Numbered from the stretch's first letter, positions 5,752 to 62,974 are shown. The stretch is 64,000 nucleotides of DNA from a virus (IMGVR_UViG_3300028534_000013:57868-121867), one strand, 5' to 3'. Translations and numbers: made by a program. Notes: generated from the sequence alone by a model not told the origin.

Positions 5752-6019
5752 TTTGTTGTTTTTTGTAGGTTGTACACAAAAAGAAATTGTGTATATAAAA
5801 AGTAGATGCCCGTCTTTTAGGTATGAGCCTGCAATTCCAGAAAGTAAAACTTTTACTTTTTCAAACAAAAATGATAAAATTGTCTTATCGAAGCAAGATT
5901 TTAAGGAAATCTTAGAAAATTATTCTTTTATGAAAAATGAATTAAACCAAACAAAACAATACATAAAAGAATACAATAAAATGATACAAAGGATTAACGA
6001 TGCCGGATATAGTAACTAA
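5723..6019 (+). CDS. Putative o-spanin lipoprotein (Rz1-like)
   Basis: Signal peptide with lipobox FFVGC; Pro-containing segment CPSFRYEPAIP; 29-nt overlap with the i-spanin. Confidence 0.7.
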   Translation: MAKKLLLLFSLLFFVGCTQKEIVYIKSRCPSFRYEPAIPESKTFTFSNKNDKIVLSKQDFKEILENYSFMKNELNQTKQYIKEYNKMIQRINDAGYSN

Positions 6020-6560
6020 ATTGGAAAAGATAGCTGAAGAGCTTCCTAAAATAGAGGACGCTATTGGAGCTAAAGAAACTTTAGAGAAAATAGCTTTCGC
6101 TGTTAAAGCTTTAGAGGTTATAGACAAAGGTGGTATGAATAAAGAAGCCGCAATATCAACAGCTTCACTGAGTCAAATAGGCGGAACGATGGCTAAAGCT
6201 TTAGTTGCTGGACTTGGAATAGGTCTTGCAGGAGAAACGTTGGATATTGGACATCAAAAAGTAAAAAAAATATTTTTTGAGAGAAAATTAAACTCTTTGG
6301 CCAAAGCGGTAAAAAAAGAAGCTCCTGAACTAAAACACACAGATGACGGAAAAATTAAAAAAATGTTAGAAGCTGGGTATCAGTTGGCTCCTGAAGTAAT
6401 GGAGAATCCTACTCTTGCGGCAAGTTTCGTAAGCATAGGAAACAGCTTGGGAGGAAAAGTTGACCCTAACACAATGAAAACTTTCGCTGATATACATTCA
6501 AAACTAAACGGAAGGGGAAGGCTCTCTGACAGTTTGAGCTCAGGAATGGGTCTTATATAA
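6000..6560 (+). CDS. K-x-A motif protein with Gly-rich hydrophobic segment (putative internal head/ejection protein)
   Basis: EKIAE, EKIAF, NKEAA, then GGTMAKALVAGLGIGLAG. Confidence 0.65.
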   Translation: MPDIVTKLEKIAEELPKIEDAIGAKETLEKIAFAVKALEVIDKGGMNKEAAISTASLSQIGGTMAKALVAGLGIGLAGETLDIGHQKVKKIFFERKLNSLAKAVKKEAPELKHTDDGKIKKMLEAGYQLAPEVMENPTLAASFVSIGNSLGGKVDPNTMKTFADIHSKLNGRGRLSDSLSSGMGLI

Positions 6561-6569
6561 GGTGATAAA

Positions 6570-7115
6570 ATGGGAACTTACAAAGTAAAGCAAAAAAACA
6601 AAAAAACAAAATTTAGCATTTTCAATTTACCTAAAATAAAAACAAATGTTGATTTAGCTAAATATGACCCTATTACCGGAGAAAAAATAGCTCTTGATTC
6701 TGGCTCAGACAATATCCAAAGCGGGGCCCAACAAAACATTCCTGCTGCCTTATCCGGAAGAAGACAAATAAACAAAAACGATTATTACAATTTAAGAAAA
6801 ATAAAAATGGAAACTATGGCTGATGCTCTTCAAAGCAGAAAACAACCAGTAGACTTGTTTGAAGCTATAAAAAACGGCACAGTTGGAACTACTGCCGGAG
6901 TTGCTATAGGGAATATTTTAAATACTTCAAACAGAGCAAAAGGATTGTTAGGGATAGGGCTTGGTGGAGCTATTGCGGCAATGGATGTCAATAGACAACT
7001 AAGAAAATACAACAACCAAATGGCAGCTAGAGAAGCTTTAATAGGACAGCCTACTGACAGAGAGAAAGCCTATATGAAACTATTAAAAGAAAAATATTCA
7101 CAAGGTAAAAAATAA
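6570..7115 (+). CDS. Hypothetical protein with two Gly-zipper segments
   Basis: GTVGTTAGVAIG and GLLGIGLGGAIAA. Confidence 0.65.
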   Translation: MGTYKVKQKNKKTKFSIFNLPKIKTNVDLAKYDPITGEKIALDSGSDNIQSGAQQNIPAALSGRRQINKNDYYNLRKIKMETMADALQSRKQPVDLFEAIKNGTVGTTAGVAIGNILNTSNRAKGLLGIGLGGAIAAMDVNRQLRKYNNQMAAREALIGQPTDREKAYMKLLKEKYSQGKK

Positions 7116-7639
7116 TGGATATTTTTAATTATTCGGACACAGATTATTCTGCTGTTCTATATAAAGACTTTTTTGTTGTTTATATGGATTTGATAAAATC
7201 TAAACTTAGAGACAAAAATGTAGACGATACTATAGTAAGGCTTATGGATGCAGATACAATAAATGTCAATAGAGCGCCTTTGATAATTTTAAAAAGGACT
7301 CATAGCCCACAGCCTCCTACAGCAGCGCTTTTAAACGAAAGACTTAACACAATAAACGACAAAAACATAATTAATAGCGTTTCATACCAAATGTTTAACC
7401 TGTTGATAACCAGCTATGGAAATACATATTTAGAAGCTGAAAGACTTGCAAGTTTAGTGATAGAAGCAATAATATTGTCATCAATAAATAAAATAAGAAC
7501 TTTAAGCGAAGATAGAATTATAGGACATGAATTTCTAAACTGGTCCGAAACAGGATTGGTGTCTCAAGATACAAAATTATTTGCTAGTTCTATAGAAATA
7601 AGAATAAGCACGATGTTTGAAACATCAACAGTATTATAA
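7115..7639 (+). CDS. Hypothetical structural protein (tail completion-like)
   Basis: 174 aa, TAATG-coupled; ITSYGNTYLEAERLA resembles tail terminator proteins. Weak call. Confidence 0.45.
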   Translation: MDIFNYSDTDYSAVLYKDFFVVYMDLIKSKLRDKNVDDTIVRLMDADTINVNRAPLIILKRTHSPQPPTAALLNERLNTINDKNIINSVSYQMFNLLITSYGNTYLEAERLASLVIEAIILSSINKIRTLSEDRIIGHEFLNWSETGLVSQDTKLFASSIEIRISTMFETSTVL

Positions 7640-7651
7640 AAAGGATTTAAC

Positions 7652-8620: not shown

Positions 8621-8850
8621 CCTGTGTAAGAATTGATAACATTGGGGTTATTCAAGAGATAGTAAGATACATGAGAGAAAAAGTTTTTGTTTGCAAAAAA
8701 AGATATGTATGTTTAAAAGCTAAAGATTTCGCTACCGAGAAAGTGTATCTTAATGAACTAATGGATATTTTAAGAAATGTTCCAATAAAAACAACTTTTG
8801 AAATAATGTACAACTACATAAGAGATGAAGGAGAATGTGATGCTCACTAA
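8617..8850 (+). CDS. Small hypothetical protein
   Basis: 77 aa, ATGA overlap with the upstream gene. Confidence 0.6.
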   Translation: MTCVRIDNIGVIQEIVRYMREKVFVCKKRYVCLKAKDFATEKVYLNELMDILRNVPIKTTFEIMYNYIRDEGECDAH

Positions 8851-10141
8851 ATATATAGACGCACAAATCGAATATGCTGAAGCTGAAAAAGAAATATGTC
8901 CCAATGGAAGATGTTCAATTGTTAAAACAGCGTCCGAAAGACCAGAAATATTTAATGATATTAAAATCAAAAAAAACCATGCATATTTGTATGTTATAGC
9001 TATGGGGGCAGGTGATTTTTATGGCGAAAATAAGAACGGAGATTTTTTTTGGGAAAAAGATTTAAAACAATATTACACTAAATTTTTGACTTCCGGGGTA
9101 TTTATTCAGCATGATAACAAAGACCCTTCAAAAAGCATTGGTAAAGTACTCAAAGCAATTTATAATGATGATATGCATAGAGTAGAACTGCTTATAGAAA
9201 TAAAAAAAGAATTGGCGCCTGATATTTATTACGCTATAGAAAATGGAGAAAGAATAGCGGTCTCTATGGGGACCAAAGTTACCGAAGAGCATTGCTCTTA
9301 TTGCGGACATGTAACAAAAGATAGCCTGGCAAACAGATGTGAGCACTTAAAATATATGATGCACCAAATTATGCCAAATGGTGTAAAAGTTTTTGCAGTC
9401 AACCATCCGCCTTTGAATTTTTTTGATATCTCTGTAGTTAGAAAACCGGCCGACACTCAAGGATATGCCTTGTTTCAAAAAGTTGCATCAGATAACAACG
9501 AGAGTCAAAAATCAAAAAAAATGGCTCTTTCTAAAATAGCTGAGCTTAAAAAAAGAATTGACGCATGGTCAGTTTCAAATCCTCTTAGCCATTCAGATGT
9601 TAAGGAAATGAAGCAAATACCAATGCCTGTTTTAAGTAATTTTGTCAAAGCTAATGATATTTTATTGAGACCGTCAGAGATAATAAGCTTATTAAGCAAT
9701 ATAGACGAACATACATATTATTCTATAACCAAACACGACACTCTTGAAACTATGATTAAATTATTGTCTTTACTTGAGGGTTGCGACCAACGTCCTACAG
9801 GGCCAGTTATAAAGCTTGCGTCAGAAGACAAATACCCGGTTTTAAATAAATTAAAACATAGAGAAATTTTAATAAAAGAAGCAATGAATCAAATGGAAGC
9901 AGAAAATATGGATGCATTTGGAAATAAAAGAATAAGGCTGACTAAAAAACATAAAACTACATCATACCCATACAATGAATATGCCGGAATAAGAATTAAC
10001 TTAAACAATGGAGATAGTGTAACCGTTCAAGAACACATATTTAATGATGTTTTTGACGCTTTCAAAGATAGCGGAGCAATTGATTCCGTGTACGGTATAT
10101 TGCCTAATGGAACTGAAAAAATAATAGCTGTTCAAAGGTAA
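8825..10141 (+). CDS. Phage prohead (head maturation) protease with Zn-binding insert
   Basis: GENKNGDFF, FIQHDNKDP, AVSMGTKV, CSYCG...CEHL and FFDISVVRKPAD motifs, matching the HK97/assemblin-like phage protease layout. Confidence 0.75.
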   Translation: MKENVMLTKYIDAQIEYAEAEKEICPNGRCSIVKTASERPEIFNDIKIKKNHAYLYVIAMGAGDFYGENKNGDFFWEKDLKQYYTKFLTSGVFIQHDNKDPSKSIGKVLKAIYNDDMHRVELLIEIKKELAPDIYYAIENGERIAVSMGTKVTEEHCSYCGHVTKDSLANRCEHLKYMMHQIMPNGVKVFAVNHPPLNFFDISVVRKPADTQGYALFQKVASDNNESQKSKKMALSKIAELKKRIDAWSVSNPLSHSDVKEMKQIPMPVLSNFVKANDILLRPSEIISLLSNIDEHTYYSITKHDTLETMIKLLSLLEGCDQRPTGPVIKLASEDKYPVLNKLKHREILIKEAMNQMEAENMDAFGNKRIRLTKKHKTTSYPYNEYAGIRINLNNGDSVTVQEHIFNDVFDAFKDSGAIDSVYGILPNGTEKIIAVQR

Positions 10142-10144
10142 TCA

Positions 10145-11320: not shown

Positions 11321-11404
11321 TAATTCACTTATTTTATAAAAAAATTTTACTTTCTTTTTTTATATCTATAAAATAATAATGAAAAACAAACCAAAGGAGA
11401 TATT

Positions 11405-12091: not shown

Positions 12092-12140
12092 TTGATTTTC
12101 CCCTTTCTTTTTTTGTATAATGCCTTTAAAAAGGCAGCCT

Positions 12141-12566
12141 ATGAAAATACCATCTAAAAAACCTCTTACTGAAAAACAAATTCAAAACATGATTATCAGG
12201 TATCTTGAATGGAGAAAAGATATATTTTTTTGGAGACAAAACTCTGGCTCTTTCACTGAAAAAGCAAAATCTGTGCTAAGTAAAATAATAAATTCAACAC
12301 CAGGATTAACGCCTGCTATAAAAGCGAGACTCATAGGTTCTTTTTATAGACAAATAGGACACTATGATTGTGCGAGCGTTAAGGGTCTCCCTGATATTGT
12401 TGCAATACAAAACGGAAAATTTATAGGGTTTGAAGTAAAAACTAAAACAGGTAGACAAAGAGAAACTCAGAAAAATGTTCAAGCTAAGATAGAAAAAGCC
12501 GGTGGTAAATATTATATAGTGAGAAGTGTAGATGAAGTAAAGGAGATATTGGACAAAAGCGAATAA
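12141..12566 (+). CDS. VRR-NUC family nuclease
   Basis: EKQIQNMII...WRQNSG...GLPDI...FEVKT..GRQRETQ...GGKYYIVRSVDEV. Start moved to the second ATG (AAAAGG RBS; the first ATG overlaps a TATAAT box). Confidence 0.88.
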   Translation: MKIPSKKPLTEKQIQNMIIRYLEWRKDIFFWRQNSGSFTEKAKSVLSKIINSTPGLTPAIKARLIGSFYRQIGHYDCASVKGLPDIVAIQNGKFIGFEVKTKTGRQRETQKNVQAKIEKAGGKYYIVRSVDEVKEILDKSE

Positions 12567-12569
12567 ACT

Positions 12570-12578: not shown

Positions 12579-12602
12579 TAAAAAAAATTACAAGGAGCAT
12601 CT

Positions 12603-13241
12603 ATGAGTTTTATAGAAAAAGTGGCTAGTTATTTTCAAACTTATGAAAATTCTTCAGCTAAAGAAGGTTTGTTGAAAATAGCAGCTGAGGATGGAGTTAC
12701 AGCTGACGATTTAGTTGCGTATCATAATTTGGTATATGGCAACATTTTTACTGGTAAAAACCTTTTAAAAACAGCAAGTGAAAATCCGGAAAGTAAAATC
12801 ATTGCTATCGGAACAGCGTTCGATAAAGTGGCAAGTGGAGAAATGACTCCAGAAGAAGTGGTGGCCTATGCAAACGAATTAGGTATGACAAAAGAAGATG
12901 TTGATTTTATCTATGCACAGATAGAAAAACAAGCGCAAGAGGCAGGAGTTATTGAATCTGAATCAAATGAAAACGATGAAGAGTTGACTGATAAAGTGGC
13001 TGAAGCAATGGATTTTCTTGATGCGAACGGAATTGACCCTATCAGCGGATTAATAATCGCTGCTAATGTTAATGAAGAAGGGTTGATTGCTGACGAGAAA
13101 GTTGCAGAAGAGGCAGTTGAAGCTGGTTTTACTGAGGAAGATTTAACAAAAATTGCAGAAGTGGTTGAGTTTTTAGGGTCTGTAGATGAAAAAGTTCTAG
13201 CTACCGCTGAAGAATTATTTGCAGCAGCGCACCAGGAATAA
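12603..13241 (+). CDS. Acidic K-x-A repeat protein (scaffold/internal head protein candidate)
   Basis: 8 of its 13 lysines are in K-x-A (KVA, KIA, KTA, KVA, KQA, KVA, KVA, KIA). Confidence 0.7.
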   Translation: MSFIEKVASYFQTYENSSAKEGLLKIAAEDGVTADDLVAYHNLVYGNIFTGKNLLKTASENPESKIIAIGTAFDKVASGEMTPEEVVAYANELGMTKEDVDFIYAQIEKQAQEAGVIESESNENDEELTDKVAEAMDFLDANGIDPISGLIIAANVNEEGLIADEKVAEEAVEAGFTEEDLTKIAEVVEFLGSVDEKVLATAEELFAAAHQE

Positions 13242-13322: not shown

Positions 13323-14285
13323 ATGTATCCAATAGAGGAATTAGCAAGTCAAATAGTAAACTCAGATGATGTTGTTGCAGAATTTGCAAAAGTTGCAAGC
13401 GACATGGATGATAGATGGAAGGTTACTTTAGCTAGAGAGGTAAACAAACAAAATTTTTTAAAAAAATTGCAAGAATCCGATTTGAATTCCGATATAAAAT
13501 TTGATGTTGTTGAGACACCTGAGATGTCTAAAATAGCTTGTGATAAAGAAAAAAAAGAGTCACAAAAAATAACTAAAACAGCTTCAGTTAATAAACAAAT
13601 AAGCATTGAGAAAAAAGCACAAATATTGCCTTCTATGTTCGTTATCAAACAAAATGAATCACTATACAGAGAAAAAATTTCTTCAGGATACGTGTGTAGA
13701 GAGTCTCTAACAAAAGAAGCTGAGGAAGCTATCAATGATGAACTTGCTTATGAAATTAAAGATAAAATAGCTGAAGAAGAAAAAGAAAAGAACAGGTTGT
13801 TGTTTGAGGCAAATATGGCAAAAGAAAAACTTCTTGACAAAATAGCCTCTTTAACGGATATGGAATCTGAAATGAGAACTGTAATAAAAGCGTTAGTCAA
13901 GTCTAATATGGAAAAATATGCCGAAGATATTTTGATGAGGAGCAATATAAGAACAGATATGCTGTCAAAAGTGGCAAGTGAAAATTTGCATCTTGAAAAA
14001 GAAGCCAAACTATATGATGCTATAGATAAATTAGCTAAAATTGATGAGCTTATTGAGAAAAAAGCTTTCGGGCCTTTAGCTAGAATTGTTACAACCATAA
14101 TAGGTAAAGGGTTGAATTTAGCAGGGACAGGGATTGCTTATGGAGCAAAAGGTGCAGCAACAGTCACCAAAGGGTTGGCTAGAACAGCAGTTAAACACCC
14201 TATCGCAACATCTGCTGTTATGGCAGGCTTTAAAACATCAGATAAATCTACTGACCACGTAAAAAATATAGTATTAGGATATTAA
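13323..14285 (+). CDS. K-x-A repeat protein with Gly/Ala-rich C-terminus
   Basis: At least 12 K-x-A motifs, then KKAFGPLARIVTTIIGKGLNLAGTGIAYGAKG. Confidence 0.7.
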   Translation: MYPIEELASQIVNSDDVVAEFAKVASDMDDRWKVTLAREVNKQNFLKKLQESDLNSDIKFDVVETPEMSKIACDKEKKESQKITKTASVNKQISIEKKAQILPSMFVIKQNESLYREKISSGYVCRESLTKEAEEAINDELAYEIKDKIAEEEKEKNRLLFEANMAKEKLLDKIASLTDMESEMRTVIKALVKSNMEKYAEDILMRSNIRTDMLSKVASENLHLEKEAKLYDAIDKLAKIDELIEKKAFGPLARIVTTIIGKGLNLAGTGIAYGAKGAATVTKGLARTAVKHPIATSAVMAGFKTSDKSTDHVKNIVLGY

Positions 14286-24483: not shown

Positions 24484-25458
24484 TTACATCCTTATGGCCA
24501 TATCTCTATATGATTCCATTTTGTTGTGGTTGTGGTATCTGTCGTACATTATGCCTCCAGCCAATCCAACGCCTATTGTATCGTACACCATATTGCTTTT
24601 ATGTTTATCTACTGCTTTTGTCAATTTTTTATAATCAGGATGGTTTTTAGCTAAATCACCGTATTCTTTTTCAAGTTGCTTTAAACCTTTAATGGCCCCT
24701 CTATATTTTTTAAAGCTGGTTACTATAGGCACATATGCTGCTTTTTTTTGCAATAAATTAGGAATATTTGCAACATCATCAATATATGGGGCATATTTTA
24801 AAGCCGCTTGATTTATTCCATTATTTTTATTCGCTTCCTCTTCCTGGTGCTGTTTTCTTTTATGTAAATAATAAGAAATTGCAGGAATAGCTGACAATCC
24901 CAGCCCAAGTAAATTGCTGCCTCTTAAAAATCTACTAAATTTACTCATTTTTGCAGCCGGGTTAAAAGCTTTAAAACCTTCCCCAATCTCTTTAACTCCT
25001 CTCTTTAAATGTTCGACAGGATTAAATGCGTGTTTTAAATTTTTAAACAATTCGGCTTTATTTTTTGAATTAACCATTTTTTTACCGGCATCCATTCCAT
25101 GCATCATAGCTCCAAACGAATAAACACTTCCGGCAGCAGCGGGAGCATATATCATTCCTGCGTGCAGTAAACTTGGCTTATCGTCTTCTTTTATGTATTT
25201 TTCTTTTAACGCATTGGCGGCTTTATTTCCTGCATAAGAAGCTGCGGCACCGGTAACGCCTCCCGCAAATCCTCCAGCTAGACCGCCGCCTATATTTTTA
25301 GCTATTCCTTTTACTTTACTTACATTTTTATCAATTTTGTCGAAAGCTCCTATAGCTCCAGTAATAGCGGTATTAGTTAATGTATCATTTTTTATTTGCT
25401 GGTAAGCGTTTTTTTTATTTGTTTGCTGTATATTGTCATATTGCTGAATTGCTGGCAT
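24484..25458 (-). CDS. Gly/Ala-rich multi-helix protein with K-x-A (putative ejection protein)
   Basis: Several Gly-zipper segments (GGGLAGGFAGGVTGAAA, GLGLSAIPA, GVGLAGG) and QKKAA. Confidence 0.6.
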   Translation of the reverse strand: MPAIQQYDNIQQTNKKNAYQQIKNDTLTNTAITGAIGAFDKIDKNVSKVKGIAKNIGGGLAGGFAGGVTGAAASYAGNKAANALKEKYIKEDDKPSLLHAGMIYAPAAAGSVYSFGAMMHGMDAGKKMVNSKNKAELFKNLKHAFNPVEHLKRGVKEIGEGFKAFNPAAKMSKFSRFLRGSNLLGLGLSAIPAISYYLHKRKQHQEEEANKNNGINQAALKYAPYIDDVANIPNLLQKKAAYVPIVTSFKKYRGAIKGLKQLEKEYGDLAKNHPDYKKLTKAVDKHKSNMVYDTIGVGLAGGIMYDRYHNHNKMESYRDMAIRM

Positions 25459-36143: not shown

Positions 36144-36473
36144 TTATTTGTTTTTTTCAATTGCTTTTATAACCTTGCTGGCTATTTTGTCACCTAAAAC
36201 ATCAGCTATTTTTACCAAGTTTGCAATGTCTGTATTTCCCGCTTCTTCAGCTACTTTTATTAAGCCGCTAAGAGAATCAACCTTATCCAGTTCTGAAGCA
36301 ATTTTTTCAATTGATTGACTTACCTTATTTACAGCTTCAACTTCTAGATTTAAGTCATCCAGCTCAGCTGTGTTTTTTTCTGAAGCTTCTTTTTGCAGGT
36401 TTGTATCTGGTTTAGTTTCTTCCGTTTTCACTTCTTCTTTTACGCTTTGGATAAATTCTTGAAAAGAATGCAT
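36144..36473 (-). CDS. K-x-A repeat protein
   Basis: KEA, KIA, KVA, KIA, KIA in 109 aa; own TGATATTAT promoter at 36495-36503 and an AAGGA RBS. Confidence 0.75.
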   Translation of the reverse strand: MHSFQEFIQSVKEEVKTEETKPDTNLQKEASEKNTAELDDLNLEVEAVNKVSQSIEKIASELDKVDSLSGLIKVAEEAGNTDIANLVKIADVLGDKIASKVIKAIEKNK

Positions 36474-38497: not shown

Positions 38498-38508
38498 TTT
38501 ATCTCCTT

Positions 38509-38898
38509 TTATACTGCATAATGTATTTCACCAGAATCGCTTGGATATTCTGGGTTATCTTCTCTACCTGTAGTTCCGTCCCAATCATTGCTTGGATTGT
38601 AAGAACCGTCAAGATTGTTGTCCGGTATTTGCTCATAAGTTCCCAACACATCATCGCTTACTGCCGCTGGGGAAACTGTCCCAAAAGTATTAAACAAATT
38701 ATATTTCAATATTGCAATATCTTGATTGATAGCCATAATTTGCTCTTGGTTTGCTATGCTTCTTTTTTCGCCGTCGGGAGTTTCGTAAATGAACGTATCC
38801 CCTTTTCTAAGGTCTATAACCATACAAGGATAAAGAAGAGAATCTCTATCCAATTCGTAAGAAGACTCTACGTTAGCCCCTATTAAATATATTTGCAT
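38509..38898 (-). CDS. Hypothetical protein
   Basis: 129 aa with a GGAG RBS. Confidence 0.7.
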   Translation of the reverse strand: MQIYLIGANVESSYELDRDSLLYPCMVIDLRKGDTFIYETPDGEKRSIANQEQIMAINQDIAILKYNLFNTFGTVSPAAVSDDVLGTYEQIPDNNLDGSYNPSNDWDGTTGREDNPEYPSDSGEIHYAV

Positions 38899-38908
38899 AT
38901 TAAGCTCC

Positions 38909-39517
38909 TTATCCGACTACTTCAAAGTCGCTGTCATCGCTTGTACTTATTGCCTGTTTGATTTCTTCAATTTTTCCGTCAAGATATGTTGTGCTGTCTT
39001 CTATTTTTGTGCCTAAGTCATCTGTTGTATATTGCACAACTTCCACAAACGCTGCAAGGTTTCTTAGGTCGATAGAAGGATTGCTTATTACAACATTATA
39101 TTTTCCTGGGTTAGGAATGTTAACAGGAATTTTGTATATACCTGTGTTACCAACCTGAGTTAAGGTGCTGTTGTAAGCAATATCTGCAACTAATTCTTTT
39201 CTAACCTTAATAATTCCACTGTCTACACTTTCAATGTAGTACATGTTGCCGTTTTCATCTTTAAACACCATTCCATCAGTAAGCGTACTGTCATCCGAAA
39301 CTTTAATAGTTTTAGTTCCTTTAGGCGCTTCTTCTGCAACTGTTGCTGTAGCTGGGCTGTCAACAGCCTCTATTACCTCTGTTACACTAACATTCGCTTG
39401 CGATACACTTCCATCTGCAAGATTGATTGTTTTAACAACAAAGTTTTCTATCCCGAAATACTTTTGTTTACTATTTATTGTTAATTCAAAATCTTGTCCT
39501 GCTTTTGCTAGAATCAT
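38909..39517 (-). CDS. Putative virion protein
   Basis: 202 aa, beta-rich, with a C-terminal coil. Confidence 0.6.
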   Translation of the reverse strand: MILAKAGQDFELTINSKQKYFGIENFVVKTINLADGSVSQANVSVTEVIEAVDSPATATVAEEAPKGTKTIKVSDDSTLTDGMVFKDENGNMYYIESVDSGIIKVRKELVADIAYNSTLTQVGNTGIYKIPVNIPNPGKYNVVISNPSIDLRNLAAFVEVVQYTTDDLGTKIEDSTTYLDGKIEEIKQAISTSDDSDFEVVG

Positions 39518-39544
39518 TTGTGCTCCTTATTTATTTTTTTTGGT

Positions 39545-39988
39545 TTATCCTGAAATTGTCCAACCGTCATCACTGTCTTCGATAACTGTGGTTGAGCCAG
39601 TTCCGGTTCCTGTCTCTGTAATGTTATTATACACAGTAGTTGGAACAATGTCTATAATGTTGGATACAACTGATTTTATTAACACGTTATAATTCCCTAA
39701 AGTTCTTGTAAACGGAGAACTCTGGTCATCGCTGTATAGATTACCCTTTACCGTTAGCGTATGGTTGGCTTCGTAAGGCCTTATCTTCCAACCGTTCATA
39801 AGAAAATACGTTATTCCCAATTTAGTATCACCTATAGGGTCGCCTCCAACATATCTCATTGCAAGAGGGTATTTTAGATTTTGAGGATTTGATAACCATA
39901 TTTTCCAATTATAATATAGTTTTCTTGTGTCCACAAAATCTTCACCATTATCCATGATAATTAATTTGTTTTGTCCATCAAACGTCAT
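39545..39988 (-). CDS. Phage tail-associated hypothetical protein
   Basis: TFDGQNKLII...AMRYVGGDPIG...YFLMNGWKIRP...GNLY pattern, recalled from phage tail loci. Confidence 0.6.
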   Translation of the reverse strand: MTFDGQNKLIIMDNGEDFVDTRKLYYNWKIWLSNPQNLKYPLAMRYVGGDPIGDTKLGITYFLMNGWKIRPYEANHTLTVKGNLYSDDQSSPFTRTLGNYNVLIKSVVSNIIDIVPTTVYNNITETGTGTGSTTVIEDSDDGWTISG

Positions 39989-39999
39989 TTTATCTCCTT

Positions 40000-42471
40000 T
40001 TAAAAGTATGTTACTTTAATGTTTTTTAAATATCCTGTAGCATAATCATACCAACATCTGGTATCTAAAACAATTTTTATTGTAGCCTTGTCGTTTATAT
40101 CGAGACTAACTTTACCCATATTTGAAACAGTCCAATAATTTGGTCCGGTTTTGTTGTATTTTAATTCATCATTTACGTATATATACAAATGTCCGCAGTA
40201 ATGAAGATAGACATCTGCCTCAAAAGTTTTGATTTTTTTAAACTCATAATGACACTCGCCTTTCAGTCTTCCACGATATGGAGGTCTGGCCGTTAATTTA
40301 ATCTCATCCTCACTATTCCAAACAGCGTATGAGTTGTGCTCCCACTTTTCATCATATAACTCTTTAGTTTCAGCAAAACTGGAGATTACCGGATAACTTC
40401 CGTAAAAAATGCCGTCATATTTAGGAGTTAATATTTTTTTATTTAAAAAAACATCTTTTAACCCATATTTAAGTGATAAATATTTAACCAGTTTCCCATC
40501 TTTAATTCTAGACATAAATTCGTATTTAGAAACAGAGCTCAAAATATGATTCCATACTTTACCTTTATGCTCAGGAAAATATAACCAAAATATTTCATCC
40601 AATGTCATATTTTCATAGTCTAAATTTTGGGTATCTATCGCCCAAGGTGCTACAGTTGTTTTGCTCACATCTGTTGATACAATTATTTTTTTATCAGAGT
40701 TTAGTCCTTGTAAAACGGTTTCTTTATCAACAACAGACATTTCATCAATATTGTTGTAATCTTTAACCGTATTTACCGCATTTGTTTTGCACAAAGTGCC
40801 GTATAAAACACTTTGTTTGTTTAAACATAAGTCTTTTTCGTCTATAAAATCAAGAACTTTGTTGTCACCGAATTTTTTAATATTCTGCCAAAAAAATTTA
40901 CTTTTAAATAAAGGTAACAATTCTTGTTTATAATTTTCGTATAAAAATTTCAATATATCATAAGAGAAAATATTTTTAAACTCTATATCTTCTATTACCA
41001 ATTGGTCAGATATGATGTTTATCAAATTCTTGGCAAACACATAAAAAGCTTCTCCAAAATGTGAATAATCATCGGAAAGATACCAAAATAAACGAATTAA
41101 TGCCCCTTTCCCATAATTAGCTGCGCTTATCATGCTTTCAGGACTTGTCCAATAATAATTGTAAGTTTCTCTAAAACCATAGCCTACAACTTTAAACGGT
41201 ATTGAATAAACCATACTTTCTAAATAATATGTTTTTAAACTGTCGTTTGAACGAATAGCCTCACAAGGGGCTTTACCGCTCCAAATATTTATCCCAGAAT
41301 TTTTTATATCTGGGCACATTTCTACACCAGAAAATAAGGTTGAAAACTTACCAACATTATTCACTTCATAATCTGTAACAGATGTCATTAAATATACTTT
41401 TTTACTGCTCATATTAAAACCGTAGCTATATCTAGCAATTCCCATATCGATAAAAACCCTGTGAGCCAACCCTCTGTCAGTAAAAAAACAAACAAGGCCG
41501 TCATCGTGTATAGCGCTTTTGATTTTGTTTGCAAGAGCCGTATTGGCAGGATAAGAATTTCTTGTCCCTACCCCTACAATAAACAAAAAATAAAAATCAG
41601 ATAATCCATGTGTATTTATATAATTTTCATCTATAAAAATAATTTTATCAGTATAAGCACCTGCAAAATCAATATTTTCAAAAACTTTTTTCATCGCTAA
41701 AGAACCTGCATCAGGGTTTTTTATATCTTTAACCAAAAAGCCTATTTTATTTTTATGGCTTTTTACACTGATTGTTCTCATAGGCCAATAGTTTTCTTCA
41801 TAAATATCGCCATCCGCATCATCCGAATGAAAAAAATATTTCGGGGGGATTACTTCAAAATTGCTGTCGCCAGGTTTTTTCCATAGTAATCTCCAGTTAT
41901 CTCCCCCAGTCATTTCTTCCTGTCTAAATTTGAACTTATAATATCCCGGTTTATCAAAATGAAATACTTTATGGTGGCTGGTGCATTTACACCATCCATG
42001 TCCGCCATACCACCCTACAATGTTTCCATTGCACGTAAAATCTACTGCATCGTCTCCATCTATAGCAATATCATAATCACCGGCTTTAGGTATATATAAA
42101 AATCCTTCAAAAATAGTCATATAATAATCGCTTGACCCAAAAGGGTTGTTACCAGAATCTTTTGTACAAATTATATTGGGAACTATTTTGGAGCTATATT
42201 TTTTAGATGAACATTTTTCTTCTAGTGAGTCTAGCCCGCTTTTGTTTGTAGGATGAGAGCTAATAAGTCCGTGGGTGTCGTATGTGCTCATTTTCACCCC
42301 AGGAATTAGGGCGACATCTGTATCGCTTAATTGTGGTTTCAAATTATACAGTGCGTCTAAAATCTGAGTTCTTATGTTTTTATCATTTAAAATCGAAACA
42401 ATTTCATCTTTACTTTTTTTATCAAGCGCCTTAAGCGCTGAAATAATTTTTACCGCTTTATAATTATGCAT
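40000..42471 (-). CDS. PA14-domain receptor-binding/adhesin protein
   Basis: FEGFLYIPKAGDYDIAIDGDDAVDF...YKFKFRQEEMTGG...LLWKKPG is PA14-like. Confidence 0.75.
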   Translation of the reverse strand: MHNYKAVKIISALKALDKKSKDEIVSILNDKNIRTQILDALYNLKPQLSDTDVALIPGVKMSTYDTHGLISSHPTNKSGLDSLEEKCSSKKYSSKIVPNIICTKDSGNNPFGSSDYYMTIFEGFLYIPKAGDYDIAIDGDDAVDFTCNGNIVGWYGGHGWCKCTSHHKVFHFDKPGYYKFKFRQEEMTGGDNWRLLWKKPGDSNFEVIPPKYFFHSDDADGDIYEENYWPMRTISVKSHKNKIGFLVKDIKNPDAGSLAMKKVFENIDFAGAYTDKIIFIDENYINTHGLSDFYFLFIVGVGTRNSYPANTALANKIKSAIHDDGLVCFFTDRGLAHRVFIDMGIARYSYGFNMSSKKVYLMTSVTDYEVNNVGKFSTLFSGVEMCPDIKNSGINIWSGKAPCEAIRSNDSLKTYYLESMVYSIPFKVVGYGFRETYNYYWTSPESMISAANYGKGALIRLFWYLSDDYSHFGEAFYVFAKNLINIISDQLVIEDIEFKNIFSYDILKFLYENYKQELLPLFKSKFFWQNIKKFGDNKVLDFIDEKDLCLNKQSVLYGTLCKTNAVNTVKDYNNIDEMSVVDKETVLQGLNSDKKIIVSTDVSKTTVAPWAIDTQNLDYENMTLDEIFWLYFPEHKGKVWNHILSSVSKYEFMSRIKDGKLVKYLSLKYGLKDVFLNKKILTPKYDGIFYGSYPVISSFAETKELYDEKWEHNSYAVWNSEDEIKLTARPPYRGRLKGECHYEFKKIKTFEADVYLHYCGHLYIYVNDELKYNKTGPNYWTVSNMGKVSLDINDKATIKIVLDTRCWYDYATGYLKNIKVTYF

Positions 42472-50990: not shown

Positions 50991-51290
50991 TTAGCAATGT
51001 GTTTGCATTAATTTATCTGCTTTTTGTAGCACGTTTTGATAACCGTGTTGAGCTGCCCTTATTTTGGCCGCTTTTAACATTTTGCAACTTATTTTACCTG
51101 TGTTTGGGTTTACGATAGGGAATTTTTTCTCACCAGGAAGAAGAAAAGCATTTGGACCATGTTTTTCCAACAAATGTTCCCTCACACTGGTTTTGTGAAT
51201 TTTTTCTTTAAGCGTTTGTCCAAACTTTAAAGCCTTAGGGCTTCTAGGGTTTTGAAATGCTATTTTTTCTACGGCTATTTTGTACAACAT
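50991..51290 (-). CDS. Small basic K-x-A protein (MLYKIAVEKIAF...FLLPGEKKFPI)
   Basis: Start moved to the ATG at 51290 (AAAGGAAATGTT RBS; TGATACAAT promoter at 51311-51319). Confidence 0.7.
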   Translation of the reverse strand: MLYKIAVEKIAFQNPRSPKALKFGQTLKEKIHKTSVREHLLEKHGPNAFLLPGEKKFPIVNPNTGKISCKMLKAAKIRAAQHGYQNVLQKADKLMQTHC

Positions 51291-51359
51291 AACATTTCCT
51301 TTTTTTGATAATTGTATCATTTTTACAGACAAATGGCAAAGTCGGGAAAAATAACCACG

Positions 51360-51615: not shown

Positions 51616-51939
51616 TTACTGTTTTTTTCTTAATTTTTTTAAAACTTTTTTATTTTTTTCATATTCTTTGTCAGTCCATCCGGTGAAAGGGTTAATTGCG
51701 TTCTCATTTTTTGAATGTTTGGCTGCTGCGTGCGCCATTCTGTTTCTGTGTAGCTCCATATTGAATCTTGTCAAAGGGTCATTCCCCATAAATGCATATC
51801 CTAAAAAAGGGTGTTTCTCGCCGTATTGTTTTCTAGCTTTTAACATTCTTTCTGTTTTTTCGCTTTCAGCGGCATAATCATGTGCATCTAATTTATGTCC
51901 AGCTCTTGTAACTGCAAACGCCAATTTATATAGCCCCAT
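51616..51939 (-). CDS. Small basic K-x-A protein (MGLYKLAF...)
   Basis: AAAAGGA RBS; TGGTTTAAT promoter at 51964-51972. Confidence 0.7.
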   Translation of the reverse strand: MGLYKLAFAVTRAGHKLDAHDYAAESEKTERMLKARKQYGEKHPFLGYAFMGNDPLTRFNMELHRNRMAHAAAKHSKNENAINPFTGWTDKEYEKNKKVLKKLRKKQ

Positions 51940-52880: not shown

Positions 52881-53102
52881 TTACAATAATTGACTACCGG
52901 CTATTCCACCAACAAGGCCAGCAATCCCACTTTCTAATCCAGTTGTATGTGTTCCCCTAAAACCTAATTTGTGTGCCCCAGCTACAGCTAAGCCTGACGC
53001 AACACCTTTAAACAACTTAGACTTAAAAAACGAATTCTTGTTTTTGTTTTGCTGTATTTTTTCTGCAGCTATTTTATATAATTTTAGCAAAGAATACTCC
53101 AT
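52881..53102 (-). CDS. Small K-x-A protein with Gly-zipper C-terminus, cut off from its promoter/RBS
   Basis: LYKIAAEKI...GVASGLAVAG...GIAGLVGGIAG; no RBS immediately upstream. Confidence 0.65.
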   Translation of the reverse strand: MEYSLLKLYKIAAEKIQQNKNKNSFFKSKLFKGVASGLAVAGAHKLGFRGTHTTGLESGIAGLVGGIAGSQLL

Positions 53103-56185: not shown

Positions 56186-56207
56186 AAATCAAATTAAAAG
56201 GACGAAA

Positions 56208-56411: not shown

Positions 56412-56415
56412 GATT

Positions 56416-56562: not shown

Positions 56563-56586
56563 TAAATAAAAATTAAAAGGACGAAA

Positions 56587-56922: not shown

Positions 56923-56924
56923 GC

Positions 56925-57262
56925 CTATGGGAAGGAAAACCCAAAAAACCCGTTTATGTGAGGTCGTTAAACATTTGGTAAGAAAAAGGTTATCGTCTTT
57001 CCGATGCGGGTAGGAAAGAGAATGAACGTTGTAATAATTCCCGTCTGCTATGCGGCAGCAGAGTGTAGAAGAGGTGCCTAGGTTTCCTCGGTTAGTTAGG
57101 CTGCACAGATGTTTATATTTAATAAGAAACCGAGGGTTAAATATATTTTAAAATATCTCTCCTGCCGCCATTGAGGGCACACATCAATGAGGAGAGACAA
57201 GGAGTTTATTATGTTAGCTACAGGGAGAAAGGGAGTGTGCATTTCCCCTTTCATTAGCACCT
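56925..57262 (+). ncRNA. About 340-nt densely base-paired region, possibly with a 24-aa ORF (57211-57285)
   Basis: At least six stems, including long-range AGGTGC/GCACCT pairing and a pseudoknot (see findings). Confidence 0.4.
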
Positions 57263-57292
57263 GTTTATTTTTTTGCTTACCTTAAAAGCAAC

Positions 57293-61549: not shown

Positions 61550-61559
61550 GTCGGTCCTT

Positions 61560-62156
61560 CTATAGGGTATATGTTTTAATTTGTTTTGTAGAATCTACGA
61601 CTCTTGCCGATTGCCAGTTAATACTATCTGTTTCCGTAATTTTTAAACCAATAAGGTCTTTACTTTTAACTTTATCATAATAACCGGTTACCTCTAATAT
61701 TAACGATGGAATAGGAGCTTTTGCTACCGCTTTGGGCTCTCCTGATATTGGTATAAAAAACATTGGTTCATACACCATCGTTTTGTTTTGATATGTGATA
61801 AGTTGAGCGTCAGGAGCTTGAATGCCGGCTTCTGTTTTGTTTATTTTCCCTGGTTTTTCTATTTTCACATACGCAGTTGTGTAAAAAGTATAGGGAATGC
61901 CTTTTATGCTTTCCTGCCCTTCCATAATAATAGTTCCGTTGTCGTCAACATCTCCAGAGCTACCGTCGCTCGAACCAGTTGAGCTTCCACTTCCTGAGCT
62001 ACTATCTGTTGAAGCTGGAGCGCTTCTCTCTACATTATCAGTTATAACTGTTGTAGTTGTTTTTATTGCTACAGGTATTCTGTATAGTTCCCCGCTTAAT
62101 GTCATAAATCTGGCCGCAATCAACTCTTTAGATGTTGATTTTTTAATTATACTCAT
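61560..62156 (-). CDS. Hypothetical protein with Ser/Gly linker
   Basis: 198 aa; SSSGSGSSTGSSDGSSGD. Confidence 0.7.
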   Translation of the reverse strand: MSIIKKSTSKELIAARFMTLSGELYRIPVAIKTTTTVITDNVERSAPASTDSSSGSGSSTGSSDGSSGDVDDNGTIIMEGQESIKGIPYTFYTTAYVKIEKPGKINKTEAGIQAPDAQLITYQNKTMVYEPMFFIPISGEPKAVAKAPIPSLILEVTGYYDKVKSKDLIGLKITETDSINWQSARVVDSTKQIKTYTL

Positions 62157-62599
62157 TAATAGTTTCCTTCAAAATCGTAAGAGTTTGAACTTACTTCTCC
62201 CCACATCTCTTTATAATAATTAGCAGCTGTTATAGACTGAAATATCTCCATCGCTTTTTGTTTATATGTGTTTGCTAAACTCAAATATTGACTTGCTTTG
62301 TTTGAATAGTCAATATTTCCGACATTGTCGTCGTTAATTTGCATTTGGTTTCTATTTTCCTGATTAGCAACCGCTTCAAGTAAGTACGATATAACCATAA
62401 AATGGATAGCCACCACAGGAATTCTATCAAAAGTGGCTAACGCAGGGTATCTAGCAAACGCTTCATCTTCCGCATCCTGAGCAGCATCAAATATTTCACT
62501 ATCTTCGAACTGCTCTTCGTATGACAATATAACATTCAACTCGTCAACATCTCTTATCATCTGCCTAACCCTTTCCGGGTTAACTAAATCTACAAACAT
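62156..62599 (-). CDS. Putative head-tail adaptor/neck protein
   Basis: Helical 147 aa; ENRNQMQINDDNVG.IDYSNKASQY pattern. Confidence 0.5.
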   Translation of the reverse strand: MFVDLVNPERVRQMIRDVDELNVILSYEEQFEDSEIFDAAQDAEDEAFARYPALATFDRIPVVAIHFMVISYLLEAVANQENRNQMQINDDNVGNIDYSNKASQYLSLANTYKQKAMEIFQSITAANYYKEMWGEVSSNSYDFEGNY

Positions 62600-62608
62600 T
62601 TTGTGCCT

Positions 62609-62974
62609 TTACTGATTATTTTGATTGTTGTTTCTCCCGAACATTAAATGGCCTGCTCCATATGTTGCCAAACCTCCTACGGCCAATCTTCCAGCTCCTC
62701 TTGCAGTAGCCATATTACCTCGTAACAATTTACCTTTATTGTTTCCGTAATTAAATCCCATTCTCATATTTTTGCCTATTTGCTTAGAAAAACTTAAGCC
62801 TTTTTTTAAAGCTGTTTCACCCTCGGCTTTTGCTAAATTTGCACCAAAATTTCCAACAGTTTGAAGCGCAGCATTCCCTGAATTTAACAATCCTTTACCC
62901 ACATTTAACATGGTCCCAAAAATACCAGCTTCTTTATCTTCAATATACATTTCAGCTATTTTTTCTAACGCCAT
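62609..62974 (-). CDS. K-x-A protein with Gly-rich amphipathic body
   Basis: MALEKIAEMYIEDKEAGIFGTMLNVGKGLL...GRLAVGGLATYGAG. Confidence 0.7.
   Translation of the reverse strand: MALEKIAEMYIEDKEAGIFGTMLNVGKGLLNSGNAALQTVGNFGANLAKAEGETALKKGLSFSKQIGKNMRMGFNYGNNKGKLLRGNMATARGAGRLAVGGLATYGAGHLMFGRNNNQNNQ

What the first reader, a model, noticed from the sequence alone, without database searches (positions are those of the whole stretch)
6000..62974. A K-x-A motif marks about 10 scattered proteins: candidate protease-recognition/head-sorting code
Seen: K-[IVTLEKQ]-A is strongly enriched in ORFs 6000 (3), 8825 (5), 12603 (8 of 13 Lys), 13323 (12 or more), 36144 (5), 50991 (2), 62609 (2), and occurs near the N-terminus of 51616 and 52881 or internally in 24484. 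It usually has an acidic or polar residue before K and S/E/A/F after A. No comparable enrichment was noticed in the tail, adhesin or enzyme ORFs. The carriers are dispersed on both strands and several have their own TGnTAnAAT promoter. Known: T4 gp21 and phiKZ gp175 cleave head proteins at short motifs ending in E. Inference: this lineage uses a different, Ala-P1 signal read by protease 8825 to mature or sort internal head proteins. I do not recall it being described as a system.
Basis: partly seen in the sequence, partly recalled or inferred. Interest (0 to 1): 0.85.

Follow-up and report, generated by a model that had tools for sequence, protein, structure and literature searches.

The report
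K-x-A cleavage code in phage heads
A short Lys-x-Ala motif is packed into the head-assembly proteins of this 177-kb phage and its relatives, and is most likely the cutting signal of their head-maturation protease, a signal that differs from the glutamate-based one known for the T4 and phiKZ enzymes.

Summary
After composition-matched shuffles, K-x-A is strongly enriched in window ORFs 12603, 13323, 36144 and the protease 8825. ORF 6000 has three conserved sites. ORFs 24484 and 34392 are chance, and 50991, 51616, 52881 and 62609 have only a weak N-terminal-leader signal. More carriers lie outside the window, including the major capsid protein, where F29, K31 and A33 are invariant in 28 orthologs.

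The motif is Φ-[E/D]-K-[V/I/T/E]-A-[S/E]. Its enrichment and its alignment columns are conserved in orthologs about 30% identical. It recurs in cultured Salmonella phage Arash, Vibrio phage D181 and Bacillus phage G gp19.

ORF 8825 has the T4 gp21/herpesvirus assemblin fold. K-x-A sites bracket its catalytic core in 45 orthologs, and K-x-A follows the core in 114 of 118 diverse family representatives. The T4 and phiKZ Glu-ending motifs are not enriched.

Best reading (about 0.7): K-x-A is the protease's recognition site, probably cut after Ala. Cleavage itself is not shown, and the cut position is inferred. I found no paper describing it. This scan's first readers noted the same motif in several other genomes; those notes are unchecked.

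The parts
8825..10141 (+). Prohead protease zymogen (438 aa). It has an N-terminal propeptide with site 1 (IVKTAS, K34), a catalytic core of about residues 40-220, site 2 (FQKVAS, K219) at the core's end, and a C-terminal extension of about 215 aa with sites KIA (237), KLA (330) and KEA (351).
   Evidence: PHROG head maturation protease, E 6.5e-11. The AF2 model has pLDDT 81. Fold match to T4 gp21 5jbl: Z 11.0, rmsd 2.6 over 128 residues; herpes assemblins Z 7-9.7. H91, S142 and H169 are invariant or nearly so. K and A are conserved in 39-45 of 45 orthologs at all five sites while neighbouring residues vary.
12603..13241 (+). Acidic (pI 4.1), scaffold-like repeat protein of 212 aa in which 8 of 13 Lys are in K-x-A. 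Predicted to be cut into peptides of about 8-74 aa.
   Evidence: 8 observed vs 0.96 expected. Orthologs in G001 and G002 are also enriched (19 vs 8.5; 10 vs 3.7) with sites in aligned columns. K in motifs is conserved 75% vs 0% outside. It has a paralog with internal repeats at genome 34178-35194.
13323..14285 (+). 320-aa protein with 13 K-x-A sites in its first 250 residues, followed by a Gly/Ala-rich hydrophobic C-terminal segment of about 70 aa. Predicted multi-site propeptide or scaffold.
   Evidence: 11-13 observed vs 2.3-4.3 expected. Orthologs about 30% identical have 10 vs 3.5 and 10 vs 3.1. Sites are aligned.
36144..36473 (-). Small acidic 109-aa protein with 5 K-x-A sites, located upstream of an RCC1-like virion gene.
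   Evidence: 5 vs 0.9, p=0.0015. Orthologs have 6 vs 1.3 and 4 vs 0.6. Two central sites lie in aligned columns.
6000..6560 (+). 186-aa protein with three conserved N-terminal Φ-x-K-x-A sites (K10, K30, K48) ahead of a Gly-rich hydrophobic segment. Homolog of Arash virion protein gp221.
   Evidence: Not enriched by count (p 0.03-0.25). Sites 10, 30 and 48 are conserved in both relatives and site 106 is not. phmmer E 1e-8 to Arash gp221, which was detected in virions (PMC10585845).
62609..62974 (-). 121-aa Gly-rich protein that starts M-A-L-E-K-I-A. Candidate short N-terminal leader ending in the motif (weak).
   Evidence: 2 sites, p=0.06. No ortholog was found in G001 or G002. Supported only by the roughly 2-fold genome-wide excess of N-terminal motif placement.
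51616..51939 (-). 107-aa protein that starts M-G-L-Y-K-L-A. Candidate N-terminal leader (weak).
   Evidence: Single site. It is conserved as K-N-A in the one ortholog found, in G002. N-terminal excess.
52881..53102 (-). 73-aa Gly-rich protein with L-Y-K-I-A at residues 7-11. Candidate N-terminal leader (weak).
   Evidence: Translation. Listed among the N-terminal hits.
50991..51332 (-). Small protein. If it starts at the internal Met (nt 51290) it begins M-L-Y-K-I-A-V-E-K-I-A. Candidate N-terminal leader (weak).
   Evidence: 2 sites, p=0.17. A TGATACAAT match at 51311-51319 would sit just upstream of a start at 51290. No ortholog found.
24484..25458 (-). Not a carrier. Its K-x-A count is at expectation.
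   Evidence: K.A 6 vs 5.4, restricted motif 1 vs 2.2. No ortholog found.

Best explanation
K-x-A, in full Φ-[E/D]-K-[V/I/T/E]-A-[S/E], is the substrate-recognition motif of the phage's head-maturation protease, ORF 8825, an enzyme with the T4 gp21/herpesvirus assemblin fold.

Proposed mechanism:
1. The protease is made as a 438-aa zymogen and incorporated into the procapsid, probably through its C-terminal extension.
2. Once activated, it trims itself at sites on both sides of its catalytic core.
3. It removes about 33 residues from the N-terminus of the capsid protein, after F-V-K-E-A.
4. It cuts the acidic scaffold-like proteins (12603, 13323, 36144, and genome ORFs 34178 and 123451) at many sites, giving peptides of roughly 10-70 residues.
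5. It removes N-terminal propeptides or leaders from internal head proteins: ORF 6000, the 830-aa protein at genome 38100, and possibly several small Gly-rich proteins.

The scissile bond is most likely after Ala, which puts K at P3, A at P1 and S at P1'. That is the same P3-x-P1 layout as T4 (L/I-x-E) and phiKZ/SPN3US (S/A/G-x-E), but with the Ala/Ser junction used by herpesvirus assemblin.

What is shown: enrichment of the motif, its conservation, its positions, and the protease fold. What is inferred: cleavage, its register, and the fate of the fragments.
For: - **Enrichment and specificity.** K.A is enriched after composition correction and tops unbiased pattern scans in three genomes. Arg does not substitute for Lys, and G or S do not substitute for Ala.
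- **Purifying selection.** In six families, K inside motifs is 64% conserved against 28% outside, and A is 67% against 36%. Sites fall in aligned columns at about 30% identity.
- **Protease autoprocessing geometry.** Five K-x-A islands are conserved in 39-45 of 45 orthologs, in otherwise variable, gap-rich sequence. They bracket the catalytic core, as SPN3US gp245 and phiKZ gp175 autocleave C-terminally (PMC5694885).
- **Breadth across the protease family.** In 143 diverse representatives of the family (4,660 at E<=1e-3), K-x-A follows the core in 114 of 118 (28% for random windows) and precedes it in 93 of 100. Their extensions carry 679 K.A against 291 expected.
- **Capsid protein.** It has an HK97 fold. 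Exactly F29, K31 and A33 are invariant in 28 orthologs, and the site is shared with Arash and D181.
- **Cultured relatives.** The same code appears in Arash gp220, gp222, gp223 and gp225, in D181, and in phage G gp19. The Arash proteins are virion-associated.
- **Fold.** T4 gp21 Z 11.0; assemblins Z 7-9.7.
- **Shape of the motif.** The logo is compact, with information only from -2 to +4. The sites occur in disordered, strand-end, loop and helix contexts of the protease model, as expected of a linear motif.
- **Classical motifs absent.** [LI].E, [SAG].E and A.E outside K.A.E are not enriched.
Against: - No cleavage has been observed. There are no N-terminal or semi-specific peptide data for any phage with this protease. 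The Arash study used tryptic searches on a preparation containing 116 of 252 proteins.
- There is no proteome-wide avoidance of K.A in non-carriers: observed/expected 0.94, 0.99 and 1.14.
- Site 2 overlaps the last strand of the conserved fold (model range to residue 216), so its invariance may be partly structural.
- Part of the count in 12603 and its paralog comes from internal repeats.
- Phage G's capsid protein has no K.A.
- Co-folding of the protease core with the capsid N-terminus gave no verdict.
- The register (after Ala or after Lys) cannot be decided from sequence.
Confidence: 0.7

Rival explanations
1. K-x-A is recognised and cut by the same protease, but the scissile bond is after Lys (P1 = K, A at P2', Φ at P3), as in a trypsin-like specificity.
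For: K is as invariant as A. In an extended strand the alternating Φ, K, A side chains face the same way in either register. An earlier follow-up in this scan on a related (K/R)(L/M)AASE linker favoured a cut after Lys (unchecked).
Against: Arg never substitutes for Lys (R.A 5 vs 5.2), which is unusual for a basic-P1 enzyme. Ser is strongly preferred right after Ala (36%, x4.8 overall; 41 of 45 at protease site 2). That matches P1' = Ser in SPN3US (PMC10052503) and in herpes assemblin (from memory). Characterised family members specify P3 and P1.
Confidence: 0.2
2. K-x-A is not cleaved. It is a docking or capsid-targeting motif that binds scaffold-like and internal proteins to a common partner (capsid interior, portal, or the protease's C-terminal domain) during procapsid assembly.
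For: The motif occurs in many copies per protein and at N-termini (about 2-fold excess, p 0.01-0.04 in three genomes), like the T4 capsid targeting sequences. K-x-A-rich Arash proteins are still detected in virion preparations. No avoidance is seen in other proteins.
Against: The sites precisely bracket the protease's catalytic core, where relatives autocleave. The motif tracks this protease subfamily across unrelated carrier proteins. The P3-x-P1-like architecture with a preferred small residue and Ser is typical of cleavage sites. In T4, targeting and cleavage are coupled, so this reading need not exclude cleavage.
Confidence: 0.15
3. The enrichment is a by-product of repeat duplication and of the helical, acidic, Ala/Lys-rich composition of scaffold-type proteins, with no function of its own.
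For: 12603, its paralog and the Arash/D181 analogues contain internal repeats that each carry the motif. The carriers are Ala- and Lys-rich.
Against: Shuffles control for composition. Spacing of i,i+2 is not a helical periodicity, and KA and K..A are flat. The motif occurs in non-homologous proteins, including the capsid protein and the protease. It is more conserved than its surroundings and sits in varied secondary-structure contexts.
Confidence: 0.05
4. The real signal is the classical A-x-E (Glu at P1) of phiKZ/SPN3US-type proteases, and Lys is only an upstream preference (K-V-A-x-E).
For: V at +1 and E at +4 are moderately preferred (20% and 21%), echoing the SPN3US V-A-x-E logo. Protease site 1 has E at +4 in 27 of 45 orthologs.
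Against: E at +4 is present in only about a fifth of sites. It is variable at protease sites 2-5 while K and A stay fixed. A.E not preceded by K.x is at expectation (22 vs 23.5). The capsid site has Q, E, D or A at +4.
Confidence: 0.05

Closest known systems
T4 gp21 prohead protease and its L/I-x-E sites (MEROPS S77)
   Same: Same fold (Z 11.0). A P3-x-P1-type short motif. Substrates include the capsid protein's N-terminus, multi-site scaffold proteins degraded to peptides, internal proteins with N-terminal leaders, and the protease itself (PMC5694885).
   Different: Here the specified residues are Lys and Ala, not a hydrophobic residue and Glu, and [LI].E is not enriched. The enzyme has a C-terminal extension of about 215 aa and an invariant Cys-x2-Cys...Cys-x-His insert. 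There is no detectable sequence match to Pfam or PDB entries.
phiKZ gp175 and SPN3US gp245 (MEROPS S80), motifs S/A/G-x-E and A-x-E
   Same: Jumbo phages with a virion multisubunit RNAP. Many head proteins are processed, there are extra sites inside propeptides, the protease autocleaves C-terminally, and Ser is preferred at P1'.
   Different: All characterised members cut after Glu. Here [SAG].E is at expectation, and A.E is enriched only as part of K.A.E. The capsid protein is a small 325-aa HK97-type protein with a leader of about 33 aa.
Herpesvirus assemblin (MEROPS S21) release and maturation sites, (V/L/I)-x-A|S
   Same: Same fold (Z 7-9.7). If the cut is after Ala, P1 = Ala and P1' = Ser are shared. 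The domain layout is also shared: protease core, then a release-type site at the core's C-terminal boundary, then a long scaffold-like extension with further sites. The herpes consensus and layout are from my own knowledge and were not checked here.
   Different: P3 is Lys here, not a hydrophobic residue, and there is an extra hydrophobic position at P5. There are many more sites and substrates. The host is a bacterium.
T4 capsid targeting sequence of internal proteins IPI-III
   Same: Several small proteins start with a 5-10-residue leader that ends in the motif (M-x-L-Y-K-[IL]-A, M-A-L-E-K-I-A, M-S-F-I-E-K-V-A). N-terminal placement is about 2-fold enriched.
   Different: The signal is statistically weak, most of these small proteins have no detectable orthologs, and nothing shows packaging.

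Membership tests
gp21/gp175/assemblin-fold prohead serine proteases (clan SH) | Assemblin-like beta-barrel fold of the catalytic domain | tested here: met
   AF2 model residues 41-216 match T4 gp21 5jbl_A at Z 11.0, rmsd 2.6 over 128 residues. Eight herpesvirus proteases match at Z 7.4-9.7.
gp21/gp175/assemblin-fold prohead serine proteases (clan SH) | Ser-His-His catalytic triad | tested here: inconclusive
   S142 and H169 are invariant (48 of 48) and H91 is in 47 of 48. The H91-S142 spacing of 51 resembles that of family members (from memory). The residues were not mapped onto the triad of a solved structure residue by residue.
gp21/gp175/assemblin-fold prohead serine proteases (clan SH) | Encoded in the head-assembly module of a tailed phage | tested here: met
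   PHROG 18299 head maturation protease. In Arash and D181 the homolog lies between structural genes, upstream of the capsid gene. Phage G gp19 is annotated as the head maturation protease (PMC12484599).
T4/phiKZ-type specificity (cleavage after Glu at x-x-E) | Substrates carry L/I-x-E or S/A/G-x-E sites, with Glu at P1 | tested here: not met
   [LI].E 32 vs 40.5, [SAG].E 63 vs 58.6, and A.E outside K.A.E 22 vs 23.5 in the carrier set. K.A is 74 vs 25.6. This is sequence inference only; no cleavage was mapped.
Prohead-protease substrate set | Motif present at the capsid protein's N-terminus, in scaffold-type proteins (multiple copies) and in the protease itself (autoprocessing) | tested here: met
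   Capsid protein: F29, K31 and A33 invariant. ORFs 12603 and 13323 have 8-13 sites. The protease has five conserved sites.
Prohead-protease substrate set | The sites are actually cleaved during head maturation | not testable with these tools
   Needs N-terminomics or non-tryptic MS of virions, or in vitro cleavage. The published Arash MS used tryptic searches only.
Herpesvirus assemblin-type sites (x-A|S) | Ala at P1 and Ser at P1' | tested here: inconclusive
   Ala is invariant by definition of the motif. Ser follows it in 36% of 260 sites (x4.8) and in 41 of 45 orthologs at protease site 2. The scissile bond is unknown.
T4-like capsid targeting sequence | Short N-terminal leader ending in a protease site on packaged proteins | tested here: inconclusive
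   ORFs with Φ-x-K-x-A within the first 14 residues: 10 vs 5.4, 11 vs 4.6 and 9 vs 4.6 in three genomes (p 0.036, 0.012, 0.036).

The most novel reading that the evidence does not exclude
Φ-x-K-x-A|S is the cleavage code of a very large, experimentally untouched branch of the gp21/assemblin protease superfamily. The branch has thousands of cluster representatives, including Bacillus phage G, cluster C mycobacteriophages, Salmonella phage Arash and Vibrio phage D181. It shares the Ala/Ser scissile junction of herpesvirus assemblin rather than the Glu-P1 rule of all characterised phage members. If so, the processed and packaged head proteome of these phages, including candidate ejected proteins, could be read from sequence alone, and the Ala|Ser specificity would link phage and herpesvirus maturation more closely than is known.
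Probability: 0.45. Interest if true: 0.8.

Novelty: new variant of a known kind. Interest (0 to 1): 0.68.

Why it matters
- **A second specificity class.** Proteolytic head maturation is well understood for only a few phages, and all of them cut after glutamate. A second class in the same fold, spread over thousands of lineages, would widen that picture.
- **Prediction from sequence.** It would give a sequence-only way to predict which proteins of uncultured jumbo phages are scaffold, propeptide-bearing, internal or ejected head proteins. Most of these have no annotation: almost no PHROG or Pfam hits here.
- **Link to herpesviruses.** It would connect phage and herpesvirus protease specificities.
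- **A practical caution.** Standard tryptic proteomics is nearly blind to cuts next to a Lys-containing site, which may be why the motif has gone unreported.
- **Easy to test.** Three cultured phages carry the system.

Tried and rejected
- **Co-folding** of the protease core (residues 36-218) with the capsid N-terminus (1-60) gave no verdict: score 0.00, partner pLDDT 31-37. This is no evidence either way.
- **Proteome-wide avoidance** of K.A in non-carriers was not found. The RNAP beta-prime half has 0 vs 4.0, which is suggestive but not significant.
- **Sequence-family searches** were mostly empty. PHROG and Pfam gave nothing for nearly all carriers and large structural ORFs. The PDB profile search with the protease alignment gave no hit. 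megablast of the head region and tblastn of the 733-aa ORF against GenBank phages gave no match.
- **ESM Atlas** gave a portal lead for the 583-aa ORF and nothing usable for the 830-aa and 411-aa ORFs.
- **Profile searches** from the carrier families into Arash and D181 gave only weak, motif-driven cross-hits, except the 830-aa protein to gp218. The K-x-A-rich proteins of different clades are therefore mostly not demonstrably homologous.
- **A-x-E as the true motif** was rejected.
- **Literature** searches for K-x-A, Lys-x-Ala, or Ala-Ser with prohead protease found nothing relevant.
- **Not readable.** The phage G capsid paper (JMB 2020, PMC7316594) is not held, so I cannot exclude that it reports cleavage sites.
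- **Cluster look-up** gave no names for the NCBI-sourced orthologs.


Full report
**What the window is.** The window is bases 57868-121867 of a 176,653-bp IMG/VR virus record that CheckV rates complete. It is about 31% G+C. It encodes split multisubunit RNA-polymerase subunits (Pfam Rpb1 domain 5 in ORF 2938; PHROG RNAP beta in ORF 57293). Most of its proteins match no PHROG or Pfam family.

- K-[IVTLEKQ]-A is significantly enriched in 12603 (8 vs 0.96), 13323 (11 vs 2.3), 36144 (5 vs 0.9) and 8825 (5 vs 1.4).
- It is marginal in 6000 and 34392.
- It is at expectation in 50991, 62609, 51616 and 24484, and in every tail-size, fibre-like or enzyme ORF.
- On the whole genome, the tighter pattern K[IVTL]A[SE] gives 45 hits in only 15 of 231 ORFs. 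Further dense carriers lie outside the window at genome 34178-35194 (338 aa, a paralog of 12603), 38100-40592 (830 aa), 123451-124437 (328 aa) and 169521-170021 (166 aa).
- In a scan of all 1600 two-residue patterns with gaps of 0-3, scored by how many ORFs carry a significant excess, K.A ranks first in this genome at p<1e-3. At p<0.01 it is third by count with the highest summed score here, and first in two relatives analysed independently.
- The signal is narrow. In the carrier set K.A is 74 vs 25.6, while R.A, K.G, K.S, A.K, KA and K..A are flat. The carriers were selected on K.A, so that z-score is inflated; the flat controls are the informative part.

**The motif.** I pooled 260 K.A sites from 30 carrier proteins of five phages.
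- Position -2 is hydrophobic: L 36%, I 13%, F 11%, M 9% (0.94 bits).
- Position -1 is E or D.
- Position +1 is V, I, T or E.
- Position +3 is S (36%, 4.8-fold over background) or E.
- Position +4 is weakly E (21%).
- Information is at background beyond -2 and +4.
The motif is therefore a compact linear one: Φ-[E/D]-K-[V/I/T/E]-A-[S/E].

**Conservation.**
- The protease has about 40 full-length orthologs at 39-62% identity, many on contigs of 150-190 kb.
- I fetched two full relatives, G001 (187.7 kb, terminal repeats) and G002 (165.4 kb), whose proteases are about 44% identical.
- Orthologs of 12603, 13323, 36144, the 328-aa protein and the 830-aa protein are only about 27-35% identical, yet almost all are significantly enriched. 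The exception is the G001 copy of the 830-aa protein (p 0.075). The sites fall in the same alignment columns while their surroundings vary.
- Across six families, K inside motifs is conserved in 64% of comparisons against 28% for other K. For A the figures are 67% against 36%.
- ORF 6000 is not enriched by count, but its sites at residues 10, 30 and 48 are conserved in both relatives.
- The sites in 34392, in the portal and in the 256-aa ORF next to it are not conserved, and I treat them as chance.

**The protease.**
- ORF 8825 matches a PHROG head maturation protease but nothing in Pfam or, by sequence profile, in the PDB.
- An AlphaFold2 model from 48 homologs (pLDDT 81) has a confident core at residues about 40-216.
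- That core aligns with T4 gp21 (5jbl, Z 11.0, rmsd 2.6 over 128 residues) and with herpesvirus assemblins (Z 7-9.7).
- S142 and H169 are invariant and H91 nearly so. C152, C155 and C167 are also invariant.
- In 45 full-length orthologs the K and A of five K-x-A sites are conserved in 39-45 sequences each. The flanking positions and the surrounding C-terminal half are highly variable and full of gaps.
- Site 1 lies in the disordered N-terminal 30 residues. Site 2 (F-Q-K-V-A-S) lies at the end of the last strand, just before a low-confidence hypervariable linker. Sites 3-5 lie in the C-terminal extension, in a helix, a loop and a helix respectively.
- This is the geometry expected for autoprocessing. 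SPN3US gp245 and phiKZ gp175 remove their own C-termini at their cleavage motif (PMC5694885).
- Caveat: site 2 overlaps the conserved fold, so part of its invariance may be structural.

**Breadth.**
- A profile search of 1.84 billion cluster representatives found 4,660 relatives at E<=1e-3 and 2,150 at E<=1e-30.
- Of the 143 new sequences among the top 150, 118 have a recognisable end-of-core motif. Of those, 114 have K-x-A within the next 22 residues, against 28% for random windows.
- 93 of 100 have Φ-x-K-x-A ahead of the core.
- Their extensions contain 679 K.A against 291 expected.
- tblastn against GenBank phages found the protease in Vibrio phages D181, D148 and D69, Salmonella phage Arash, Bacillus phage G (gp19), cluster C mycobacteriophages (as a 1,240-aa fusion), and Erwinia and Dickeya phages.
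- In Arash, gp220 (10 vs 3.1), gp223 (8 vs 3.0), gp225 (7 vs 1.8) and the protease gp222 (7 vs 3.2) are enriched. D181 shows the same pattern (11 vs 3.9, 10 vs 2.9, 6 vs 1.7, protease 8 vs 3.0). For phage G gp19, K.A is the top pattern (8 vs 2.4), with I-L-E-K-V-A-S at the end of the core.
- Profile searches show that the K-x-A-rich proteins of Arash and D181 are mostly not demonstrably homologous to those here. The motif follows the protease, not the carrier families.

**The capsid protein.**
- Homology to Arash's annotated genes places the portal at genome 35257-37008 (E 1e-58) and the major capsid protein at genome 125332-126309 (E 3e-33), just beyond the window's end.
- The capsid model has an HK97 fold, with 161 PDB matches at E<=0.001.
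- In 28 orthologs down to 53% identity, exactly F29, K31 and A33 are invariant near the N-terminus. Residues 30, 32 and 34 vary, and the upstream 28 residues are variable with gaps.
- Arash and D181 have L-V-K-E-A-G and L-T-K-E-A-G at the same place.
- A leader of about 33 residues ending in the motif is what a prohead-protease substrate would look like. It could also be a conserved N-arm element.

**Which bond, and which rivals?**
- All characterised relatives specify P3 and P1 and cut after Glu: T4 L/I-x-E, phiKZ S/A/G-x-E, and SPN3US A-x-E with V at P4 and S at P1' (PMC10052503 and PMC5694885).
- Here the two fixed residues are two apart and are followed by a preferred Ser. The simplest mapping is K = P3, A = P1, S = P1'. 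From my own knowledge, this is also the Ala|Ser junction of herpesvirus assemblin sites.
- A cut after Lys fits the alternating-side-chain geometry equally well and cannot be excluded. What argues against it is that Arg never replaces Lys, and that Ser is preferred right after Ala.
- The classical A-x-E reading fails. E at +4 is present in about a fifth of sites and is variable at protease sites 2-5. A.E outside K.A.E is at expectation.
- A pure composition or repeat artefact is excluded by the shuffles, by the flat KA and K..A controls, by the excess conservation, and by the motif's presence in unrelated proteins.
- A non-cleaved docking motif remains possible and is not exclusive of cleavage. 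N-terminal placement of the motif is about 2-fold enriched in all three genomes (p 0.012-0.036), which recalls the T4 capsid targeting sequences. This evidence is weak, and most of the small proteins concerned have no detectable orthologs.

**What is missing.**
- No experiment shows cleavage.
- The Arash virion proteome detects gp218 and gp220-226, but it lists 116 of 252 proteins and used tryptic searches (PMC10585845). It therefore cannot show processing, and trypsin itself cuts after the motif's Lys.
- There is no proteome-wide avoidance of K.A.
- Co-folding gave no verdict.

**Novelty.**
- Searches of the held literature found no description of a K-x-A or Ala-P1 code for a phage head protease. 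The phage G capsid paper could not be read.
- Notes from this scan show that first readers flagged K-x-A saturation of head proteins in at least six other genomes, and the bracketing of this protease in this genome. Those notes are unchecked leads, not independent evidence, but they agree with the breadth measured.
- I rate it a new variant of a known kind. The process (prohead proteolysis by a gp21/assemblin-fold enzyme) is known. The specificity and the subfamily's substrate code appear undescribed.

Noticed in passing
window 9290-9350 (protease residues about 152-169 in ortholog numbering): An invariant Cys-x2-Cys ... Cys-x-His cluster (C152, C155, C167, H169; 48 of 48 sequences) sits inside the protease core. 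It may be a zinc site. H169 is also the candidate third triad residue, so the two roles need to be separated.
   Followed up: partly
protease homologs P0042, P0045-P0048 (other contigs): Several orthologs of the protease are 600-625 aa long and carry intein and LAGLIDADG domains (PF14890, PF14528). These are inteins inserted in a prohead protease gene.
   Followed up: no
window 12120-12566 (+): An HNH/endonuclease-like ORF (PHROG 93, E 6e-20) is inserted between head-module genes, just upstream of 12603. It is probably a homing endonuclease.
   Followed up: no
window 13323-14285, 6000-6560, 62609-62974, 52881-53102, 24484-25458: Several proteins have Gly/Ala-rich hydrophobic segments of the glycine-zipper type. 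In 13323, 6000, 62609 and 52881 these follow a K-x-A-bearing N-terminal part. Arash gp224 looks similar. They may be membrane-active internal or ejection proteins that are released or activated by processing.
   Followed up: no
window 2938-4680 (+): The RNAP beta-prime C-terminal-half protein has no K.A at all against 4.0 expected. Orthologs have 0 vs 4.1, 0 vs 3.9, 1 vs 3.8 and 3 vs 4.5. In Arash the RNAP subunits are the most abundant virion proteins by MS. This would fit avoidance of the motif by a packaged enzyme, but it is not significant on its own.
   Followed up: partly
L069 (Mycobacterium phage Pier gp101): In cluster C mycobacteriophages the protease domain is the N-terminus of a 1,240-aa protein (PHROG 2774) with 15 K.A vs 7.2 expected. 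This looks like a protease fused to a long extension that may be self-processed.
   Followed up: no
window 50991-51332 (-): The listed TTG start at 51332 is probably wrong. A TGATACAAT match at 51311-51319 and an internal Met at 51290 suggest a shorter protein that begins M-L-Y-K-I-A.
   Followed up: partly
genome 33481-40592 (outside the window, upstream): A second head module lies 17-24 kb before the window. It holds the 830-aa Arash gp218 homolog, a 256-aa ORF, the portal (583 aa), the 338-aa paralog of 12603 and a 222-aa ORF. The capsid gene lies about 3.5 kb after the window's end. The head genes are thus split over at least three loci.
   Followed up: partly
whole window: TGnTAnAAT (an extended -10-like pattern) occurs 42 times against 28.4 expected from shuffles (0 of 100 shuffles reach 42).
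   Followed up: no
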